In this document: positions 561 to 17,284 of the stretch, piece by piece
Position numbering within the stretch: position 1 is the first letter of the stretch
Layout of the letters: every line of letters begins with the position of its first letter
NCBI GenBank assembly: GCA_000004985.1
Contig: GG738857.1
DNA: 64,000 nt
Strand: one strand, 5' to 3'
From: Naegleria gruberi
Taxonomy: Eukaryota
Position numbers and translations under genes: made by a program
Notes under the pieces: generated by a model
What the model was told of the DNA's origin: nothing
Database searches by the model: none
Seen by the model: the letters and a program-made list of their open reading frames with translations, nothing else

Positions 561-942
561 ATACCTAATGTAGATGTAATTTCATCATCAATTATTATAT
601 ACTACGGGAATTTATTAATGTGGATAGTCGTGTAGGATCATCATGTGATCTTTAAAATAATAATTATCATTGGCCGATGATACAATATCTGTTTAATGTT
701 GACTTGCTGGTAGTAAGAACAAACATCACATAAAAAATTTCATCAAGGCTGTATTCATCACGGAGAGTAATTAAATTTTGATAGAAGAAGAACAAAGACT
801 ACTTTTTGTATATATTCTTCTCGAGATTGAACCACTATTAACAACTACTCTAACCAATCAATCAATAACATTTATCAACAACAAAAGCATCAAAAAGTGG
901 TGCTACACCAACAACAATTTTCTACAACAACAACAAGAACCA

Positions 943-3900
943 TGAGTACACCCACCAACCACGATTCATCAACCAACTTGACCATTCAAGTAAATGGTGA
1001 TGAAATGTCGTTTAATCCAATCCTTCTTGGATCCATGAGTAATAATAATAACAATGAAGCAACAAGCCTTCTTCAGCCTGAAACTAGTGATGATTATAAT
1101 ACTTCTACTACACAACAGTATCATGATGATAACAACAACAACAACAACATTAATAATACATCATCATCATCTTCAACACAAGTTGTTGAGGGAAGTATAA
1201 TAGTAGAAGGTAATATTATGAGTGAATCTAAACTAAGTGAACAAGATAAACAAAGTCTTGTTAAAGAATTATCAAAAGCAATACTAGGTATATATATGAA
1301 TAATGTTATTCAAACAAGTGTTAAAGACAAAATAATAGAAACTGCAACAGATAAAACTACAGCAAACATTCTAAGTTTTTATTATAAACGAAGAGAATAT
1401 TTAAAACAACAACAACAATATCAACAACAACAAGTAAAACAACAAGTAGAACAAGTAGAACAACAAGTAGAACAAGTAGACCAAGTAGAACAACAATTAA
1501 ATAGAATAATAGAAAAGGAAGAAGGCTTGATTTCATTAGATCATCCAACAAATTTAGATGATTCTATCACAAGAATTGATTTAAATGATGAATATCAACC
1601 TCCTATTACAGAAAATAATAGTAGTAGTAATAATAATATATTAAATAATATACCTTCTTCTTTACCTTCAACAATAGATATTAGTAATAATGATAATGAT
1701 ATTGTAATGATTGATCAATCTTGTAATGATGATAATAGTAATATTAATAATATTAATCATCAACAACAATCTAATCAATTAAATGAACATCAACAACTAG
1801 ATATTAATCATCAATCTAATCAATTAAATGAACAGCAACAACTAGATGATCAACAATCTAATCAATTAAATGAACAATATGATCAACAATCTAATCAATT
1901 AAATGAATCAATTATTCAATTAAATAATGAACAATTAAATGAATCACCAATTCAATTAAATAATAATCAACAATTAAATCAATTAAATAACAAGGATATT
2001 GAAACAGATGTAGAAAATGAAGAAGAAGAATTCTATAAAAAGTATATGAATGATTTTAGAAATGATGATTTAATTGTAAACAAACATGAAGAATTATATC
2101 CATGTGAAAATTCATATATAGATCATTTTAGAGAAGCAATTTTATTAGAATGGAATGAATTTAAAAAACCAATTGAATTTAAATATGAATATATACAAAC
2201 TAGAATTGAACAATTAAAAAAAGAATATAATAATATTATACATTTAATTAATACAGATACTAAATATAGTAATAATAATAATAATGAATTAAATTGTTCA
2301 AAATTATCAGGTATTTCAAATGATAATATTAAAAATAATATAATGATAAATAGATCATCTGAATTATATAATGCTTTTTATACTCCATATAAAAGAAGAT
2401 TAGATTTATTACAACATCCATTTTTTGGAAGTTTTCATGATGTTTTTAATAGAGAAATTGAACATTTAAATCAATTAAAAGAAAAACAATCAGATTTAAC
2501 TATAATTTCATCAAATTGGGTTTCTGCTACTTCAACTAATACAACAATTAATAATAATAGTATTTTAAATGATACAAATACAAATAATAATACTAATAAT
2601 ACTACTAATAATAATAATAATACAAATAATAATTTAAAAATAACATATCCATTTCCATATATAACAACATTGGATATATTAGATTCTATTGAATTATTTA
2701 AAACAGCATCAATATCATATCCACCTAATGATAGAGCAGTACCATTATCATTTTCATCAATATTAAAATATAATAATAATAATAGTAATATTAATAGAAG
2801 AAATGTTTCATCTTCAAATAGAAGAGGTAGAAGAGGTGCAAGTAGATTATCACAAGGTAAAAGAGTTGGCAATAGATCATCTACATCATCATCTACAGCA
2901 ACAGCAACAAGTGGTGGTGGTGGTGGTGGATCAACAAATAAATCCAAACTAAATGATCTTAATCAAGATGAAGATTATGAAGAGAATTTTATACTCTATG
3001 ATAGTACTAAAGATGTTAAAGCAGCAGAAATTACAGTACCTAGTTTTAGAATATTAACAAATGAACAAGTATCTGAATTAAGTGATGAATTTTCAGATGA
3101 TGAAGATATATCAGATGTTAAATATTGTTATTTACATATTGATAAGGAAATGCAAGAACGTCAAAAATATTATATTGCTTCTTTACCTTCTTCTTCTGAT
3201 AAAAAGAAAAAGAAAACTTCAGATCAAGATTCAAAGAATTTACATTATACTATACCTAATCATGATACTTTTAAATTGGCATTTGAAAAGTTTAATAGTA
3301 CTAATACAAATACTAATAATACAAATACAAATAATAATCATAGTACTACTACTACTACACATAATGATCATTCACACCGATTTAAATATAATGATGATTT
3401 ATCAACAGAATTAAAGAGTGGTAAAAATTTAATAAGCATGTCTAATAATTCTATTAATAATACTAGTATAACAACAACATTTAATGATAAATTAACATAT
3501 CTTGTACCAATAGAAGATTTACAACAATATTCATCACAACAACAACAATCAACAGGACCAATGAATGCTAAATTAGCATTTAGTAAACATCAATTTCAAT
3601 CCAAATTAGGATCACCACAAAAAAAGAAAGATTTAAAAAAGGAATTAACAAGTATACCTAGATGGAAATTAATTTCAATTGAATCCTATGTACCATATCC
3701 TATTTTAAAAAAGTGTGATGATCCACGTGGTAATTGGAATGATTTAAAACTTAAAAGTTTAGAAAGAAGATCAAATTTAACACTTGATTTAAATACTGAA
3801 CTTACAAATAATTTATTATTTAATGATTTAAATACTATTAATACTATTAATAATAATACCATTGATACTATTAATACTAATATTAATAATTCTAATTCTA

Positions 3901-4460
3901 ATTCTAATAATATAATTGGAAGTAGTAGTAATATTAGTACAAGAAAAAGAGCTAAAAGTGAAGTAGAAAATGAATTAATTACAACAGGATCATTTATTAA
4001 AAGTAATTCATCAACAACACCCTATCATCATCTTCAACAACCTAAAAAGAAATCTAAATATGATTTTGATGATATGGTAATGGCAGATGAAGATACAGAT
4101 GAAATTGAAGATACAGATGATGATGATTTTCATCAAGAAGATGATGAACAAACTGATTCAGAAGATGATATTTTAATTTCAACTCCAAAACATTCAAATA
4201 TTACTACTATTACTACTACTACTACATTTAATACAAATACTACATTTAATACTACAGCACCACCATCAAGTAGTAATAGTAATAATAATTCTACAACTTC
4301 AATTACAACAACAACACCAACAAAATCATCATCTAAAAAATCTAAAAAGAAGAAATCAACTTCATCTAAAAAGAAAAAGAAGAAGCAAATTACAACTCCT
4401 GTTCGTGTTGATAAAGTTATTAATGATGGTACAAAGATAGTATTTAAATTACAAAAATAA
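943..4460 (+). CDS. Hypothetical large N/Q/T-rich low-complexity protein (about 1170 aa), single exon
   Basis: Continuous 3.5-kb ORF. Track start 897 is GTG; the first ATG is at 943 (MSTPTNHD...). Long poly-N, poly-Q and poly-T tracts typical of dictyostelid proteins. No recognisable catalytic domain. Confidence 0.55.
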
Positions 4461-4802
4461 TACTATTTAAAATAAATTTAATTTTTTTGAAATCAACATA
4501 TTTAAACCTATTTTGAGATATTAATATTTAATATTTAGGGTAATTGAGGTAATTGGATTTTTTAAATAGTGACTTGATTTTATTTCTTTCAGTGACTGTT
4601 TTGAATAAAGTTTAAAGGCTTGGAACATTAAGGCGAACAAGAAACATACTCTGATTAAGAACAGATAAGGTTGATCATTGTTTACAAAACTCTCAAAAGA
4701 ATATTCATTTCATGCGCGGACATGAGTTCATCGTCATCTATTAATTCCGACCAGTCGGGAGAGAGGAAGAATAGCACCTAATCAATAAAAAAAATATACA
4801 CA

Positions 4803-5129
4803 ATGACTGGAAGCCAACATATCAGTAATACTTATGCAGGACTCCTCACTATCGGAGGTATTGCAGCCTACGCAAAGAAAGGTTCTACACCAAGCTTGGT
4901 TGCAGGTGTTGGTTTAGGTGCGGCTTTTGGAGCATCTAGTTATCTTATTATGCAACAAAAGCATTTTGAAGGACATGCTTTAGCTAGTGCTGCTTCTGTT
5001 GTATTATTGGGTGCTGGTGTTAGTAGATTTTTAAAGGCTTCAAATAAGACTATTCCTTCCATTCTTACCATCTTGGGTTTAATTTCTAGTTATTATCAAA
5101 TTAACAAGGCTATTGAATGGAAGCAATAA
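4803..5129 (+). CDS. TMEM14 / UPF0136 family small 4-TM membrane protein
   Basis: 108-aa ORF (MTGSQHISNTYAGLLTIGGIAAYAKKGSTPSLVAGVGLG...) resembles human TMEM14A/C (GYVKTGSVPSLAAGLLFG...). Glycine-rich TM helices. Confidence 0.7.
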   Translation: MTGSQHISNTYAGLLTIGGIAAYAKKGSTPSLVAGVGLGAAFGASSYLIMQQKHFEGHALASAASVVLLGAGVSRFLKASNKTIPSILTILGLISSYYQINKAIEWKQ

Positions 5130-5443
5130 ATAATTATATATTGGGAATATATGTTTAGTAATACTTTTAATTTATTAAATATTATTTAATTAAATATTTA
5201 ATTTTATTTATTAATTTTAATAATATTATTTCATTATTATATCTAATTGTAATATGATATCTCTCTAATTTTTATTTGAAACATTAACAGTATTTTAATT
5301 TACAAAATAGTAACTAGACTATCCAATAATAGAAATCCATAAACAGTAGTTTCAAAATAGCCTTAACGAACTTTACCGCACACAAAAATAACCATTTCAC
5401 TGTGATGGTTTAATAACAACTTGTAAAAAAGTCAGAATAAGAA

Positions 5444-8400
5444 ATGGCGAATAGAGTAAGACCAATTAATAATGTTGAGGAAAGACGAATGCAACACGAA
5501 CTTCAACAACAATTATCATCCTCAATAATACACAATTCAAATCATCATCTTCAACAACAACAACAAGAATATTATAATAATACCTCCTCTCAATATAGTA
5601 ATAATAATAATAATTCACAACAACATAAACCATCTTCAGCGAGTAAAAGTCATCATCACACTAATTATTACCTTAATACAAGTCAACAACAACAATATTT
5701 TAATAATATACAACCACCACCTCCAAGTAGTAATATAATTAATATTAATGATATTAGAAATAATCAAATAGTAGCATCACAAGCTAGTCAACAACAACAA
5801 AAGACTTCCAATTTAATTCATTCAAATTCATCATCTTACTATCATTCTCATCAACAACAACAACAACAACAATTACCACAAACGTCAGTGCAACAACAAC
5901 CCTATCAATATCAACAATATCTTGATGAACCAATTTATATAGCAGCATCATCATCTACTACTACAACTCCAACTACTAATAATAGTCAACAAAATACAGA
6001 ACAATATTCATTTACCAATTCAAGATCACACGCATCAATAATATCATCTTCAAATTCAACAAATATTACAAATTCAACTAATCAAACAAATACAAGTTCT
6101 AATACAAATATAACAAATATAACCAATTCAAGTAATCAAACTAATGAATCATATATACCTTCTACAGAAATAAATATAGATAGTAATAATGGAGATGAAG
6201 TTGGAATTAAAGTAGTAGTTAGAGTTAGACCATTTAATGAAAGAGAAATTAAATTAAAATCAAAACCAACAATTTCAACTTTAAAACAAAATCATGAAAT
6301 TACTTTAAAAAGAAAATTTAAAGAAGATAAGAAATTTTATTTTGATGATATTTTTGATGAATATTCTACTCAATCTGATGTTTATGCTTCTACTGGTAAA
6401 AGAGTTTTAGATCGTTTTGTTTTGGGTTTTAATGTTTGTTTTATTATTTTTATATTTTTATATTTAATAATATTTAATTTTTATATTTAATAATATTTAA
6501 TAATTTAATTTAATATTTAATAATTTAATATAGTGTTGTATATTTGCATATGGACAAACAGGATCAGGTAAAACAGTATGTATATAATATATTTATAATA
6601 TATTTTAAATTAAAATAGTGGACAATGCAAGGTATAAAAGGAAATGAAAGTAAAGAAGGTATAATGTCTAGATTTGTACGTGAATTATTTACCTATATAG
6701 AAAGAGAACGTAATAGAACAGATATAACATTAAAAGCATCCTATTTTGAAATATATAATGAACAAGTATATGATTTATTAAATCCTAATACAATTAATAC
6801 TCATCCTATTTTAGCCTTTGGATCAAATGTTAATTCAACTTGTTATAATCAAAATAATAATCAAAATAATTCAAATTCAAATAATAATTCAAATTCAAAT
6901 AATGATGATGATAATAATAATAATATAACAATAACAAATATAAATTCAACAACATATGAAATTAGAGAAGATAAAATTAAAGGCATTCATATAAATAATT
7001 TAATAGAAAAACCAATAATACTAGTAAAAGATTTAAATGAAATGTTAATAGAAGGAGCTAGTCGTAGAACGATAGGAGAAACTAAAATGAATCAAGAATC
7101 ATCACGTTCACATGCCTTATTACAAATATATATGGAACAAATAGATAAAGATGATATGGAAGGATATTCTAAAAGAACTAATAAAATATCCTTAATAGAT
7201 TTAGCAGGATCAGAAAGACAATCTGCAACATCAAATATAAATAGACAAAAAGAAGGATCTAAAATTAATTTATCATTATCTAATTTAGGAAATGTAATTA
7301 ATGCAATTGTTAAAAAATCTAATTTTATACCATATAGAAATTCTAAATTAACAAGATTATTAAAAGATTCAATTGGTGGTAATTCATATACTTTAATAGT
7401 TGTATGTTTATCTCCATCAGATTTAAATATGGAAGAATCTTTATCATCTTTATATTTTGCTGATAGAGCTAAACATATTAAAAATAAGTTAAAAATTATT
7501 AGAGGTGATCCTAATTTAGATAAAATTAATTTATTATTACAAAATGAAAAAATATTAAAAAATAGAATTTTAGAATTAGAAAATCAATTATTTTATTATT
7601 TAAATAATAATATTTTATTAAATAGTAATACTTTAAATTCTAACATTTTAAATAGTACTTTACATAATGGTATGATTATATCATCTTTAATACCTAATAA
7701 TAATAATAATTTAAATAATTTAAATAATTTAAATAATAATATAAATAATAATTTAAATAATAATAATAATATAAATAAAAATGAAATATCAATAATGACA
7801 GATTTATATGGATATGAAGTAGATGAAGCATTAGATTATTATAGAACTATTAATGCTATTGAATTACCACCACAATCACAATCAAAAGAAATACAAACTG
7901 ATTATAATTTAAATACTAATAATCAAAATAATTTAAATACTAGTACTTTAAATATTAGTAATCATAGTAATCATATTAAAAATGAAGAAGAAATAAATTT
8001 AAATAATCAACAACAAGAATTAATATTTGATGAAATGAAAGAAGAAATGATTGAACAAGAAAGAAGAGAACAAGAATTATTAGATCAACAAAGATTAGAA
8101 CAAGAAATTATAGATCAATTAGATATGATTGATGATCAACCTGGTGGTATTAATCATCAATATGAATCAAATGTTGGACCTTTTATTCAACATCAACAAT
8201 ATGAATTAGATGATGATCAACAACAATATTATCAACAACATTCACATCCTCATCATGATCAATATGATCAATATCAACAACATGAATTAGATGAACCTTA
8301 TTATAATAATCAACAACATCATTCAAGAAGAAATATAATTGCTGATAAAAGATCAAATGATGATACTCAATATAGAGAATATAATAATACTAAGGGAAGA

Positions 8401-8481
8401 AATCAAATTAAACAAGAAATACCTTCACAAACTGCAAGTGAATATTATAGAGATGAAAAGGAAAAATGTATTATTTTGTAA
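5444..8481 (+). CDS. Kinesin-like protein, 3 exons: join(5444..6433,6534..6575,6619..8481); introns 100 nt and 43 nt
   Basis: Motor motifs VRVRPFNERE, GFN|CCIFAYGQTGSGKT|WTMQG, SSRSHA, LIDLAGSE, HIPYRNSKLTRLLKDSIGGNS. The P-loop is split across a 42-nt middle exon. Donors are GTTTGT and GTATGT; acceptors are TAG and TAG. The ORF-track pieces 5444..6490 and 6625..8481 join in frame only with this structure. Confidence 0.85.
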
Positions 8482-10725: not shown

Positions 10726-12456
10726 ATGCAGCAGCAGATCATACCAGTATTATATGAACAAGCATTAAAACATGAAAGAGGTACAGCATTAACTTGTACA
10801 GGTGCACTTGTTGCTTTTAGTGGACAAAAGACAGGTCGTTCACCTAAAGATAAACGTATTGTTTCAGAAGAAACATCAAAAGATGATATTTGGTTTGGTC
10901 CTGTTAATATTCCATTAAGTGAAGATTCATTTATGGTTAATAGAGAACGTGCTGTTGATTATTTAAATACACGTGAACAATTATACGTTTTTGATGGTTA
11001 TGCTGGTTGGGATCCAAAATATAGAATTAAGATTAGAGTTGTTTCTACACGTGCTTATCATGCTCTATTCATGAGAAATATGTTAATTAGACCAACTCAA
11101 CAAGAATTATTAGATTTTGGTGAACCTGATTATGTTATTTATAATGCAGGTGAATTCCCTGCTAATCGTTATACTAAGGGTTTGTTTTTTTTTATTTTTA
11201 TACTATAACATACTAATATTTTATTACTTTATACTCTATCATTTATACTATCATATATACTATCATTTATACTATCATATCAATATATACATACTATTAT
11301 ATATTATAAAATAATAGGAATGACATCAAGTTGTTCAATTTCATTAAATTTTAAGAGACGTGAAATGGTAATATTAGGATCACAATATGCAGGTGAAATG
11401 AAGAAGGGAGTATTTACCATAATGCATTATTTAATGCCAAAACAAGGAGTACTTTCACTTCATAGTAGTTGTAATGAAGGTAAAGATGGTAGTGTTTCAT
11501 TATTTTTTGGATTATCAGGTACAGGTAAAACAACATTATCAGCAGATCCTAATAGATATTTAATTGGTGATGATGAACATGTATGGACAGAAAGTGGTGT
11601 TTTTAATATTGAAGGTGGTTGTTATGCTAAATGTATTGGTTTAAAGAGAGAAACTGAACCTGAAATTTATGATGCATTGAAATTTGGTTCAGTTTTAGAA
11701 AATGTAATGATGGATGAAGTTACACGTCAAGTTGAATATGAAAGTTCAGAAATTACAGAAAATACTCGTGCTTGTTATCCATTAGAATATATTCCAAATT
11801 CTAAAATACCTGCCATTACAAAACATCCAAACAATATCATTTTATTAACTTGTGATGCATTTGGTGTTTTACCACCTGTTTCTAAATTGAACATTCCACA
11901 AACAATGTATCATTTCATTAGTGGTTATACTGCTAAAGTAGCTGGTACTGAAGTTGGTGTTACTGAACCACAAGCTACATTCTCTGCCTGTTTTGGTGAA
12001 CCATTCCTTGTTTTACATCCAACTAAATATGCTGAAATGTTAGCTGAAAAATTAGAACAACACTCTGCAACTGCTTGGTTACTTAATACTGGATGGGTTG
12101 GTGGTAGTGCTGGTTCTAAATCAAAGGTACGTGGTAAGAGATGTCCATTAAAATATACACGTGCCATTATTGATGCTATTCATAATGGTGAATTGGTTCA
12201 AGCTCCAACTGTTGAAATGGAAATCTTTGGTTTGCATGTTCCAACTAAATGTACTGGTGTTCCAGATGATTTATTATTACCAAAGAATGCTTGGTCTGAT
12301 AAGGATGCCTACGATGATGAATTGAACAAGTTATGTATCTTGTTTAATAAGAACTTTGAAGCTTATGCTGATAGAGCTTCTCAACAAGTTCTTGCTGCTG
12401 GTCCAAAATCTACCTCCACTAAACATTACGATGTTAAACTCATTCGTGAAGCTTAA
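10726..12456 (+). CDS. pckA: Phosphoenolpyruvate carboxykinase (ATP), 2 exons: join(10726..11179,11318..12456); 5' start uncertain
   Basis: [11 protein letters not shown]...[27 protein letters not shown]|G|[49 protein letters not shown] are diagnostic of ATP-dependent PEPCK. A 138-nt AT-rich intron (GTTTGT...TAG) restores NRYTKGMTSS. An upstream ATG at 10674 (strong AAAATG context, coding-like codons, [23 protein letters not shown]) lies in the -1 frame relative to 10726. That is either a frameshift or sequencing indel, or 10726 is the true start. Confidence 0.85.
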
Positions 12457-14315: not shown

Positions 14316-14386
14316 TCGGGTGTGGTATAGTGGTAGCATTCCAGACTGTCACTCTGGCGACCCGGGTTCAATTCCCGGCACTCGAG
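14316..14386 (+). tRNA. tRNA-Asp (anticodon GTC)
   Basis: Hand-folded cloverleaf. Acceptor TCGGGTG/CACTCGA (one G-U pair). D-arm GTATAGTGGTAGCAT. Anticodon stem CCAGA/TCTGG with loop CTGTCAC, anticodon GTC. T-arm CCGGGTTCAATTCCCGG. Discriminator G. Confidence 0.8.
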
Positions 14387-15055
14387 ATTAATTTTTGACA
14401 TTATCTCCAAAATTTGAGTTTTAATTTTTTCATCATAAGAGGAATGATATGTAATCTAGCCAATTATCAATTTTCAAAGTTATATCTCTTAAAACCACCG
14501 AGAAAATAATCAAAGATTTTAAAGTGTCATATTCCTTAAAAATATTCCAAGATGCCCTTTTTAGTTCCATTTGTTCTTTCCTCTCATTGTTTTCCTGCAT
14601 AACTCAATGGTTGTTGATATGATGGAATTGCCTTCTTATCAAATGTCTTAATTTCAACACGAAGAGCAAGAAGAAGATATCTATTTGGGAGAAAATTCAA
14701 ATCCAAAATTGGAATATATTCTCTAACTTTAATATTTTGTAAAATATTGATTGACAAAATTGAAAAAACACACCTTCCCATTTGAGATTAGGAATTAATT
14801 TCCAAAAGTATTGAATACTTGCAATCATGATTACCTTGTTTTTGGTTTCTTCTGCATTGATGGATTGAAAATTTTTGGGTTAACATTTGTCGAGTAATGG
14901 AGCTAGACCATTGATCAGTTTGATTGTTGGCAGTTAAAGCTTTTGTGTAAAATGGAAGAAACAACTTGTTTTGGATCTAGATCATCTAATCTAGTTTCTG
15001 ATAGATTGTTGAAAGATAAGGAAATTTCCACTGCCAGTAAACGAAGATATCCAAT

Positions 15056-15084: not shown

Positions 15085-15202
15085 GGCTACGGCCATATCA
15101 CGATGAATGCACCTCATCCCGTCCGATTTGAGAAGTTAAGCATCGTCGAGCCACATCAGTACTGAGGTTGGAGACAACTTGGGAACCTGTGGTGCTGTAG
15201 TC
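15085..15202 (+). rRNA. 5S ribosomal RNA gene, copy 1 (118 nt), followed by a T5 Pol III terminator
   Basis: GGCTACGGCCATA...CATCCCGTCCGATTTGAGAAGTTAAGC...AGTACTGAGGTTGGAGACAACTTGGGAACCTGTGGTGCTGTAGTC matches the eukaryotic 5S consensus. Helix I pairs 5' GGCTAC with 3' GTAGTC. Box-A/box-C-like internal regions are present. TTTTT follows. Confidence 0.9.
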
Positions 15203-15368
15203 TTTTTATCTTTATGGAGAGTTTGTTCATTTACAAGTAAGTTTAACGATGATTAATCTGTCTTTGGAAAGAGGTTAATGAAAGGAAGAAGTTTTGTTTG
15301 ATATTAACAATATTGGAAGCTTGTTTTTATTGATTCATTACAATATTGAGTACTGCCATTTTAAACAA

Positions 15369-15905
15369 TTAGAAAGCATTAATCAACTTTTTAGCTTCAG
15401 AATCAGCAGATGGACTTTGTCTTTCATTAGCAACCTTCATAATAAGAGTCAAATTGCAATCCAAAGTGACAACCAAATCAGTACCATTAACCTTGTAAGA
15501 ATATCCAAGGAAACCAGAAGATTCCTTACTATCAGCATTGTGGACAACTCTGAAAATCAATTTTTCCAATCCCATGAAAGCATCCTAACAATCAGGATCC
15601 TTGATGAATACCTTGGCAATTTCACTCATATTACTCAATCTTGGACTTTCAGTTAAGAATTTGATGCAATTATTCAACAAGGTATCTTCAGCAAATCTAT
15701 CACCATACTTGTATTTGGTTTCAGTTGGCAATGCAGCAAGAGAAGCCCAATCCAACAAGATGATCATCTTTGAATTGACTTGTTGAAGATTCTTGGTTGC
15801 AGGAACAATACGATTGTTGAATAATTCACGAACTACCTTCTTGAATGCCAAACCACTTCCACACATGTTTTCATTGAATAATTCTTCGTGAGTTTGTTGA
15901 GTCAT
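15369..15905 (-). CDS. Conserved-looking small protein gene (about 177 codons) interrupted by one in-frame TAG at 15585..15587; possible pseudogene, readthrough or sequence error
   Basis: Two track ORFs (15585..15905 and 15369..15575) are in the same frame, separated only by TAG plus 9 nt (...FIKDPDC * DAF MGLEKLIFRVVH...). Both halves show biased, highly-expressed-type codon usage with C-ending codons. No GT-AG intron can remove the stop; the only candidate is 40 nt and gives the wrong phase. Confidence 0.5.
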
Positions 15906-17052
15906 TTTGATATAAAGTTTGTTGAGGAGTTTTCAGATACAATCCAATATTGAATATTGTTTTTTTGTGTTGTTTTTATCATAAAGAATGGTCAATTGGA
16001 ATTTATAGAAATTTTATTGTGTAAGATTACAATATTTACAATGGAGTTTAATAGAGTCAATGGTTTTCTGAGAATTGAATTGGTTGAACATTTGTGGAAC
16101 AACCTTATTGAGAAGTCAGTAAGAGGAATGGTAACACCTCAGTATCATCTAACTATCGAATAGAACTCAACACAATTGGATATGAATAAAGGGAGGATAT
16201 TAGTTTACAATATTCTCATTTAACAGTCCTGATCGAGTTGCTTAAAATAATTAGTTGGGAACTCATTGTAACTTTTGGAACCACCAAAACGAAAAAAAAC
16301 TACATGGACATGTAAACACGCTCTCATGCAACATGCATGAATGGAAGTTGTCTTATGCCTATCAAAGTTAATATGAACCCAAAAATCTTCATTTCAAACA
16401 GGAATTCGTAATAGAACAAATTACGATTATGATTCAATATTATGAGGACGAATAAGCACATTATTACAAAACCTTAATATAGTGATATTCTAAAACTGGA
16501 GAACTAGTTACTTTGGAATGATCAAGGTGAGGAGTAATGTTATTGAAACGGAACGACAATTTATTGATTAGGACGGTTGTTTTGTTGTTTTTTGTCATTT
16601 TCTTTTGTTTATTCATGATTTTCATTAAATCAAAAATGTATCAACTTGTAAATAATTAAGTTGGAGGAATGGCTATTGCAATGCCAAAGGATTTTTTTAT
16701 CATCTTAATTGAAACATTCTACATTATTGCCTAATTTTTAATTTCTAACTACTACATGTTACGCAATTTCAAAGGCAATACTAAACTTCAAAGTGTTACC
16801 TCATCTTGGATGCTTGCAAACTGATAGCAAATAATGCTCAATTGAGAGTTGGTGTTTGGAATTTGTTTTGTAAAGACTTTGGAAAAGTTCAATATTTTCA
16901 CCTCTACTCTTATTTAAATCTTCAGCAGACAAATCATAAATATTTCCCAAAGAAATTTGAGAAGGTTGTTCAAGTGTGTTTCAATTAGGAGGTGTTAATA
17001 TTAACCGGGTTGATGATGTTAGCCTTATATTCAATATATTAATGTAATTGAT

Positions 17053-17170
17053 GGCTACGGCCATATCACTATGAATGCACCTCATCCCGTCCGATTTGAG
17101 AAGTTAAGCATAGTCGAGCCACATCAGTACTGAGGTTGGAGACAACTTGGGAACCTGTGGTGCTGTAGTC
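17053..17170 (+). rRNA. 5S ribosomal RNA gene, copy 2 (118 nt), followed by a T5 terminator
   Basis: Identical to copy 1 except nt 18 G>T and nt 60 C>A. Those two positions are predicted to pair in helix II, so the G:C to U:A change is compensatory. About 100 bp of 3' flank is also conserved between copies (TTTTTATCTT...CATTTACAAGT...AAGTTTAAyGATGATTAA...GTCTTGAAAGGAAGA). Confidence 0.9.
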
Positions 17171-17284
17171 TTTTTATCTTTTGAAACATCAAACATTTAC
17201 AAGTTCAAATTAAGTTTAATGATGATTAAGGTTTAAGAGTCTGTCTTGAAAGGAAGATGATGAAGATTATTTCTCTAAGAAAAA

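What the first reader, a model, noticed from the sequence alone, without database searches (positions are those of the whole stretch)
15369..15905. Highly expressed-type gene between the 5S copies is interrupted by a single in-frame TAG
The two halves (107 and 68 codons) are in the same frame, separated by TAG plus three codons. Both halves have strongly biased codon usage with C-ending codons, typical of highly expressed dictyostelid genes. No GT-AG intron can excise the stop. The possibilities are a very recent pseudogene, an assembly or base-calling error (a single C>T at 15587), or a stop-codon readthrough/recoding candidate.
Basis: seen in the sequence. Interest (0 to 1): 0.6.

Follow-up and report, generated by a model that had tools for sequence, protein, structure and literature searches.

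The report
Nonsense-mutated copy of a Naegleria gene
One copy of a multi-copy, Naegleria-specific gene of unknown function carries a single Lys-to-stop change (AAG to TAG), most likely a very young pseudogene or null allele, which the public annotation hid behind an implausible 27-base intron; this is an ordinary finding.

Summary
The in-frame TAG is real in the sequence. It lies on the minus strand at + strand 15585-15587 and splits one 178-codon gene (15905..15369) into 106 and 71 codons. The organism is Naegleria gruberi, not a dictyostelid. The gene belongs to a family found only in Naegleria, Willaertia and a few environmental contigs, with at least 12 gene models in N. gruberi and no Pfam, PDB or fold match. 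Every family member that covers the position has Lys there, and the two close DNA relatives use AAG. The change is therefore A>T on the coding strand, not C>T from Gln. The stop is the only residue private to this copy when compared with five intact 178-aa paralogues. An AlphaFold model (pLDDT 87) shows one domain whose sheet draws strands from both halves, so a 106-aa product should be non-functional. I found no readthrough signal: the context is UAG-G, there is no downstream structure, and the window otherwise fits the standard code. A 27-nt in-frame GT..AG does span the stop, and GenBank model NAEGRDRAFT_65199 uses it, but it removes conserved codons and does not resemble real introns in the window. 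Several other family members also carry lesions. Best reading: a recent nonsense mutation (about 0.7). A base-call error (about 0.18) cannot be excluded without reads.

The parts
15369..15905 (-). Whole interrupted coding sequence: 106 codons, TAG, 71 codons, TAA. It is a member of a 178-aa family restricted to Naegleria and Willaertia, and corresponds to GenBank model NAEGRDRAFT_65199 (P0002).
   Evidence: tblastn of the Lys-restored protein covers 15905..15372 in one piece at 99.4% identity.
15585..15587 (-). In-frame TAG at codon 107, replacing a Lys that is conserved across the family (AAG in the two close DNA relatives).
   Evidence: Alignments A1, A4 and A5 show K in every member that covers the column. 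DNA alignment A2 shows AAG in L001 and L002 against TAG here. It is the only residue private to this copy versus five intact paralogues.
15588..15905 (-). N-terminal 106 codons, the only part translated if TAG terminates. In the model they hold helices and one short strand (48-51).
15372..15584 (-). C-terminal 71 codons, untranslated if TAG terminates. They hold three of the four sheet strands (115-122, 136-140, 143-150) and the C-terminal helices.
   Evidence: This part is conserved in all relatives. dN/dS for this part against L001 is 0.19.
15369..15371 (-). True stop codon TAA, at the same position as in all full-length relatives (...LINAF*).
15585..15611 (-). 27-nt in-frame GTATTC...TGTTAG segment that the public gene model treats as an intron, deleting VFIKDPDC plus the stop. 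Judged an annotation workaround rather than a real intron.
   Evidence: P0002 equals the window protein minus exactly these 9 codons. The segment is 37% GC and encodes conserved residues. Real introns in the window are 43 nt (5% GC) and 138 nt (14% GC).
16062..16137 (-). Conserved non-coding block 157-232 nt upstream of the ATG. It is shared with the two close DNA relatives and may be a promoter or 5' element of this subfamily.
   Evidence: Alignment A2. Unique in the window. Absent upstream of the distant members L003 and L005. No Pfam match for its translation.

Best explanation
This is one paralogue of a Naegleria-specific multi-copy gene that acquired a single A>T transversion, turning the conserved Lys-107 codon AAG into TAG. 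With the standard code that this genome uses, translation stops after 106 residues. The product lacks three of the four strands of the single-domain fold and the C-terminal helices, so it should be non-functional, and the mRNA is probably a target of nonsense-mediated decay. Several intact paralogues that are nearly or fully identical elsewhere should cover the function. The locus is therefore a very young pseudogene or, in a heterozygous diploid, a null allele. The public annotation concealed the lesion by inventing a 27-nt intron.

Shown here: the stop, its position in a conserved column, the absence of any other private change, the single-domain model, and lesions in other family members. 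Inferred: that the base is real rather than a sequencing error, loss of function, NMD, and compensation by paralogues.
For: The fused product aligns over all 178 residues with N. gruberi proteins at 93-100% identity. K107 is present in every Naegleria, Willaertia and environmental member that covers it. The codon is AAG in L001 and L002. The stop is the only position where this copy differs from all five intact 178-aa paralogues, so the lesion is recent.

The AF2 model (pLDDT 87.2, pTM 0.85) is one domain with strands at 48-51, 115-122, 136-140 and 143-150.

The family is prone to decay. L001 has an in-frame TAA at codon 150 and L002 an in-frame TGA at Trp-53. N. gruberi models P0003, P0006, P0007, P0008 and P0014 are truncated, skip conserved blocks, are chimeric or carry many radical substitutions, against five intact models.

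The standard code holds in the window: ORFs reach 1,209 codons, and treating TAG as sense barely lengthens them. Of 22 other long ORFs, 19 end in TAA.
Against: No reads, transcripts or second independent sequence of this locus could be obtained. Paralogue DNA from N. gruberi was not retrievable, and exact look-ups of the 106-aa, 68-aa and Lys-restored products found nothing. A single-base error would look identical. No relaxation of constraint is visible (dN/dS 0.19-0.33 downstream of the stop), although a very recent lesion would not be expected to show any. The gene keeps strong codon bias and its conserved upstream block, which fits either a young pseudogene or an intact gene with a sequencing error.
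Confidence: 0.72

Rival explanations
1. Sequencing or assembly error. The true base gives AAG (Lys), and the gene is an intact, expressed 178-aa paralogue.
For: Apart from codon 107, the copy matches at every residue at least one of the five intact paralogues, and it differs from P0010 at only two other residues. Codon bias and the upstream conserved block are fully preserved. Near-identical paralogues and small unplaced contigs (3.0, 2.7 and 10.5 kb) show this is a repeat-like region where assembly is harder.
Against: One specific error creating a stop in a given gene is rare a priori in a finished consensus. Independent DNA from two other samples also shows single in-frame stops in close relatives, and about half of the N. 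gruberi models are defective, so real lesions are common in this family. The public model P0002 skips exactly the nine codons ending at the stop, so the deposited reference sequence has the same base. That may be the same data as the window.
Confidence: 0.18
2. Stop-codon readthrough or recoding. The UAG is decoded at a useful rate, for example by near-cognate tRNA-Lys, Gln or Tyr, yielding the full 178-aa protein.
For: The downstream frame stays open, is conserved, and ends at the family's normal TAA. All three close DNA copies examined carry one in-frame stop each, TAG, TAA and TGA, in otherwise clean ORFs. From established knowledge, Lys is one of the residues near-cognate decoding can insert at UAG, which would restore the wild-type protein.
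Against: The stop is not conserved: all relatives have Lys, and the three stops sit at three different codons. The context is UGU-UAG-GAU, with no CARYYA-type motif and G at +4. The 120 nt downstream fold no better than shuffles (z = +0.88). No suppressor tRNA is in the window. Nothing in the window suggests TAG is sense. No report of programmed readthrough in Naegleria turned up among the papers found. Any one-step nonsense mutation is trivially near-cognate to its parent codon.
Confidence: 0.04
3. A genuine 27-nt spliceosomal intron (15585-15611) removes the stop, as in GenBank model NAEGRDRAFT_65199, giving a 169-aa protein.
For: The segment starts with GT, ends with AG and is a multiple of three. 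The public annotation uses it. Short introns do exist in this window: 43 nt in the kinesin gene.
Against: The nine codons are conserved coding sequence (VFIKDPDCK) in all paralogues and in Willaertia, and fall where the model is most confident (residue blocks 91-120 average pLDDT 94-96). GC is 37%, against 5% and 14% in the two verified introns. The donor GTATTC differs from GTATGT and GTTTGT. At 27 nt it is well below the shortest intron seen here. Paralogue model P0003 shows the same kind of in-frame skip (54 nt) elsewhere, which points to a pipeline habit of splicing around lesions.
Confidence: 0.03

Closest known systems
Young duplicated pseudogene or null allele created by a single nonsense mutation in a multigene family
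   Same: One disabling point mutation relative to intact paralogues, with an otherwise intact ORF, codon bias and upstream region. Other family members show independent lesions.
   Different: The family has no known function. Whether the lesion is fixed or heterozygous, and whether the copy is still transcribed, is unknown.
Automated gene models that hide in-frame stops behind invented micro-introns
   Same: GenBank model EFC46824 / XP_002679568 (NAEGRDRAFT_65199) equals the window protein minus exactly the nine codons ending at the TAG. Sister model NAEGRDRAFT_69174 has a similar 54-nt in-frame skip.
   Different: Nothing unusual. This appears to be a routine artefact.
Programmed UAG readthrough (tobamovirus UAG-CAA-UUA type, MLV gag-pol UAG plus pseudoknot, eukaryotic readthrough genes)
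   Same: An in-frame UAG followed by a conserved, open downstream frame.
   Different: The stop is not conserved among homologues, there is no stimulatory hexanucleotide, +4 is G, and there is no downstream structure.
Stop-codon reassignment (ciliate code UAR=Gln; Blastocrithidia)
   Same: An AT-rich protist genome with an in-frame UAG in a conserved gene.
   Different: Other genes in the window have long ORFs under the standard code and mostly end in TAA. Treating TAG as sense does not extend ORFs. The aligned residue is Lys, not Gln or Glu.

Membership tests
Naegleria/Willaertia 178-aa orphan family (NAEGRDRAFT_63263-like) | Full-length collinear alignment with intact members | tested here: met
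   93% identity over 178 residues to P0001. Only two other differences from P0010.
Naegleria/Willaertia 178-aa orphan family (NAEGRDRAFT_63263-like) | Conserved columns (L50, D52, W53, P60, K64, E73, H122, G131, G141, L144; near-invariant K107) | tested here: met
   All are present in the window copy except K107, which is the TAG.
Pseudogene (nonsense-disabled paralogue) | Disabling lesion at a position that is sense in functional relatives | tested here: met
   TAG against K/AAG in all relatives. The truncation removes most of the sheet in the model.
Pseudogene (nonsense-disabled paralogue) | Relaxed selective constraint after the lesion | tested here: inconclusive
   There are no private substitutions, and dN/dS downstream of the stop is 0.19-0.33. 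A very recent lesion leaves no signal.
Pseudogene (nonsense-disabled paralogue) | The base is real in the organism, and no full-length protein is made | not testable with these tools
   No reads, RNA or proteomics are available. Exact look-ups found nothing.
Programmed stop-codon readthrough | The stop codon is conserved at the same position in orthologues or paralogues | tested here: not met
   All relatives have Lys. The stops in L001 and L002 are at other codons.
Programmed stop-codon readthrough | Stimulatory 3' context (CARYYA-type, or C at +4) | tested here: not met
   The sequence is UAG GAU GCU UUC.
Programmed stop-codon readthrough | Stable downstream RNA structure | tested here: not met
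   MFE -21.2 kcal/mol against a shuffle mean of -24.1, z = +0.88.
Spliceosomal intron | GT...AG boundaries | tested here: met
   GTATTC...TGTTAG, 27 nt.
Spliceosomal intron | Non-coding character and intron-like composition and length for this genome | tested here: not met
   It encodes the conserved VFIKDPDC(K). GC is 37%, against 5% and 14% in verified window introns of 43 and 138 nt.
Variant nuclear genetic code with UAG as sense | In-frame UAG common in conserved genes, and ORFs extend when UAG is read as sense | tested here: not met
   Standard-code ORFs reach 1,209 codons, and ORF lengths change little with TAG as sense. No suppressor tRNA was found.

The most novel reading that the evidence does not exclude
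In this codon-optimised, multi-copy Naegleria family, in-frame stops are tolerated because they are read through at a useful rate. All three close relatives for which DNA could be read carry exactly one stop each (TAG at Lys-107, TAA at codon 150, TGA at Trp-53) in otherwise clean, constrained ORFs. That could in principle reflect leaky termination on abundant mRNAs rather than gene death.
Probability: 0.04. Interest if true: 0.6.

Novelty: new member of a known kind. Interest (0 to 1): 0.15.

Why it matters
The main value is for annotation. The public N. gruberi model for this locus (NAEGRDRAFT_65199) and several sister models (69174, 70922, 64222, 76539, 46359) look like artefacts built around lesions, and they should be re-annotated as pseudogenes or checked against reads. 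The finding also flags an uncharacterised, probably abundant, Heterolobosea-restricted protein family whose confidently predicted fold has no clear match among solved structures. The in-frame TAG itself adds nothing new to what is known about translation or recoding.

Tried and rejected
1. Function by sequence. Pfam, and PDB by sequence and by profile, gave nothing.

3. Paralogue DNA. The look-up of encoding contigs had no record for the N. gruberi models P0001, P0002, P0003 or P0008, so the duplicates could not be dated from synonymous differences, and the 10.5-kb contig copy could not be checked for TAG versus AAG.

4. Independent confirmation of the TAG. Exact look-ups of the 106-aa, 68-aa and Lys-restored 178-aa products found nothing.

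5. More relatives. A JGI metagenome protein-pattern scan and an 18-nt DNA pattern scan gave only chance matches.

6. Variant genetic code (my first suspicion for an AT-rich protist). Rejected by ORF statistics.

7. The conserved upstream block as a Tc1/mariner transposase relic (its + strand peptide GFLRIELVEHLWNNLIEKS looked reminiscent from memory). There was no Pfam match, and the block is absent from distant members, so the idea was dropped.

8. Linkage of the family to 5S genes. There is no 5S in L001 or L002, and only the roughly 205-nt 5S units are repeated in the window.

9. Literature. No paper mentions these locus tags or accessions, and no report of programmed readthrough in Naegleria turned up among the papers found. 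The N. gruberi genome paper was not held.

Full report
**What is in the sequence.**
The feature is on the minus strand. An ORF begins at ATG 15905-15903 and runs 106 sense codons. It then meets TAG (+ strand 'cta' at 15585-15587), continues in the same frame for 71 sense codons and ends at TAA 15371-15369. The first half has 106 codons, not 107. Two 5S rRNA genes flank the gene at 15085-15203 and 17053-17171, both on the + strand. A tRNA-Asp lies at 14316-14386. Only the roughly 205-nt 5S units are repeated in the window (86% identity), and the protein-coding gene occurs once.

**Organism and genetic code.**
The window is 29.4% GC. Under the standard code it holds ORFs of up to 1,209 codons. 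Reading TAG as sense hardly lengthens any of them. Of 22 other long ORFs, 19 end in TAA, one in TAG and two in TGA. Protein searches place the gene in Naegleria gruberi. Model P0002 (NAEGRDRAFT_65199, on a 573-kb scaffold) is identical to the window product except for one nine-residue gap. The neighbouring genes are ordinary eukaryotic ones, including kinesin, PEPCK, a UBX protein, a proteasome lid subunit and an AP mu subunit. So this is a heterolobosean with the standard code, not a dictyostelid or an organism with a variant code.

**The two halves are one gene.**
The fused product aligns over all 178 residues with five intact 178-aa N. gruberi proteins: NAEGRDRAFT_63263, 52426, 54911, 54296 and 74215. 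More distant members occur only in N. gruberi, Willaertia magna and a few environmental contigs. An exhaustive profile search of 1.84 billion representatives found just eight proteins. Every member that covers the TAG column has Lys (alignments A4 and A5). The two close relatives for which DNA was available have AAG there. The change is therefore AAG>TAG, which is A>T on the coding strand and T>A at + strand 15587. The stop is the only position where this copy differs from all five intact paralogues. It differs from P0010 at just two other residues.

**Consequence for the protein.**

**Readthrough or recoding.**
The context is UGU-UAG-GAU-GCU, with G at +4 and no CARYYA-like hexamer. The 120 nt downstream fold worse than shuffled controls (z = +0.88). 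The window holds no suppressor tRNA. The stop is not conserved in any relative. No report of programmed readthrough in Naegleria turned up among the papers found. None of the defining features of programmed readthrough is met.

**The 'no GT-AG intron' claim.**
An in-frame 27-nt GTATTCATCAAGGATCCTGATTGTTAG (+ strand 15585-15611) begins with GT and ends with the AG of the TAG itself. P0002 is exactly the window protein minus these nine codons. I do not believe it is an intron, for three reasons:
- It encodes VFIKDPDC(K), which is conserved through to Willaertia, and residue blocks 91-120 of the model average pLDDT 94-96.
- It is 37% GC with donor GTATTC.
- The two introns I could verify in the window look quite different: kinesin P-loop exon junction 6576-6618 (43 nt, GTATGT...TAG, 5% GC) and PEPCK 11180-11317 (138 nt, GTTTGT...TAG, 14% GC).

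The sister model P0003 (NAEGRDRAFT_69174) has a comparable in-frame 54-nt skip. It probably hides another lesion; this is an inference.

**The family decays often.**
Both environmental contigs with close relatives carry one in-frame stop in an otherwise clean ORF. L001 has TAA at codon 150, where relatives have Asp or Glu. L002 has TGA at Trp-53. L002 comes from sample ERZ929261. That sample also holds a contig encoding an N. gruberi protein exactly (P0017), so it contains N. gruberi-like DNA. Among the 12 N. gruberi models, five are intact and the rest are defective in some way:
- P0006 carries many radical substitutions and a changed C-terminus.
- P0007 is N-terminally short and skips 14 codons.
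- P0008 is a chimera that leaves the ORF at residue 67 and splices across the 5S gene onto spurious ORFs matching window 14433-14781.
- P0014 is a fusion.
- P0011 is N-terminally truncated.

Pairwise dN/dS is 0.20 (window against L001) and 0.43 (window against L002), with no visible relaxation downstream of the stops. With so few changes, this test has little power.

**Verdict.**
The most likely explanation is a recent real nonsense mutation in one of several near-identical paralogues, making a young pseudogene or null allele, which the public annotation masked (confidence about 0.72). A single-base sequencing error is the main rival (about 0.18) and can only be settled with reads. Readthrough (about 0.04) and a genuine 27-nt intron (about 0.03) are unlikely. 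The codon-bias claim is confirmed numerically: the gene has the highest GC3 and the strongest AAG, TTC and TTG preference in the window, in both halves. 'Highly expressed' remains an inference. The finding is ordinary. Its practical value is in correcting annotation and in pointing to an uncharacterised lineage-specific family.

Noticed in passing
L001 962-964 and L002 679-681: Both environmental close relatives of the gene carry a single in-frame stop in an otherwise intact ORF. L001 has TAA where relatives have Asp or Glu (codon 150). L002 has TGA at the invariant Trp-53, and its database protein P0005 was called with TGA read as Trp.
   Followed up: partly
window 16062-16137 (-): A 76-nt block 157-232 nt upstream of the ATG (core GTTCCACAAATGTTCAAC) is conserved with L001 and L002 while the flanking non-coding DNA has diverged. 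It is absent upstream of the distant family members L003 and L005. It may be a promoter or 5' element. Its translation has no Pfam match.
   Followed up: partly
window 14433-14781 (-) and 15705-15905 (-): GenBank model NAEGRDRAFT_76539 (P0008, on a 10.5-kb contig) joins the first 67 codons of a near-identical gene copy to spurious ORFs that match window 14433-14781, splicing across a 5S rRNA gene. This implies that a second, near-identical copy or haplotig of this region exists in the assembly.
   Followed up: no
window 14316-14386, 15085-15203, 17053-17171 (all +): A small cluster of Pol III genes: tRNA-Asp(GTC) and two 5S rRNA genes 1,968 nt apart in the same orientation. The 5S genes are only 86% identical over about 205 nt including short flanks.
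   Followed up: partly
window 897-8481 (+): Three long ORFs here have extremely low GC3 (0.04-0.07), against 0.10-0.34 elsewhere in the window. They are a 1,187-aa protein with a weak PEHE hit and a kinesin split by short introns. This is a marked heterogeneity of codon usage within 64 kb.
   Followed up: no
window 6576-6618 (+) and 11180-11317 (+): Two verified spliceosomal introns. One is 43 nt, directly after the kinesin P-loop codons GQTGSGKT. The other is 138 nt, in PEPCK. Both are very AT-rich, with GTATGT or GTTTGT donors and TAG acceptors.
   Followed up: yes
[not shown]
   Followed up: partly
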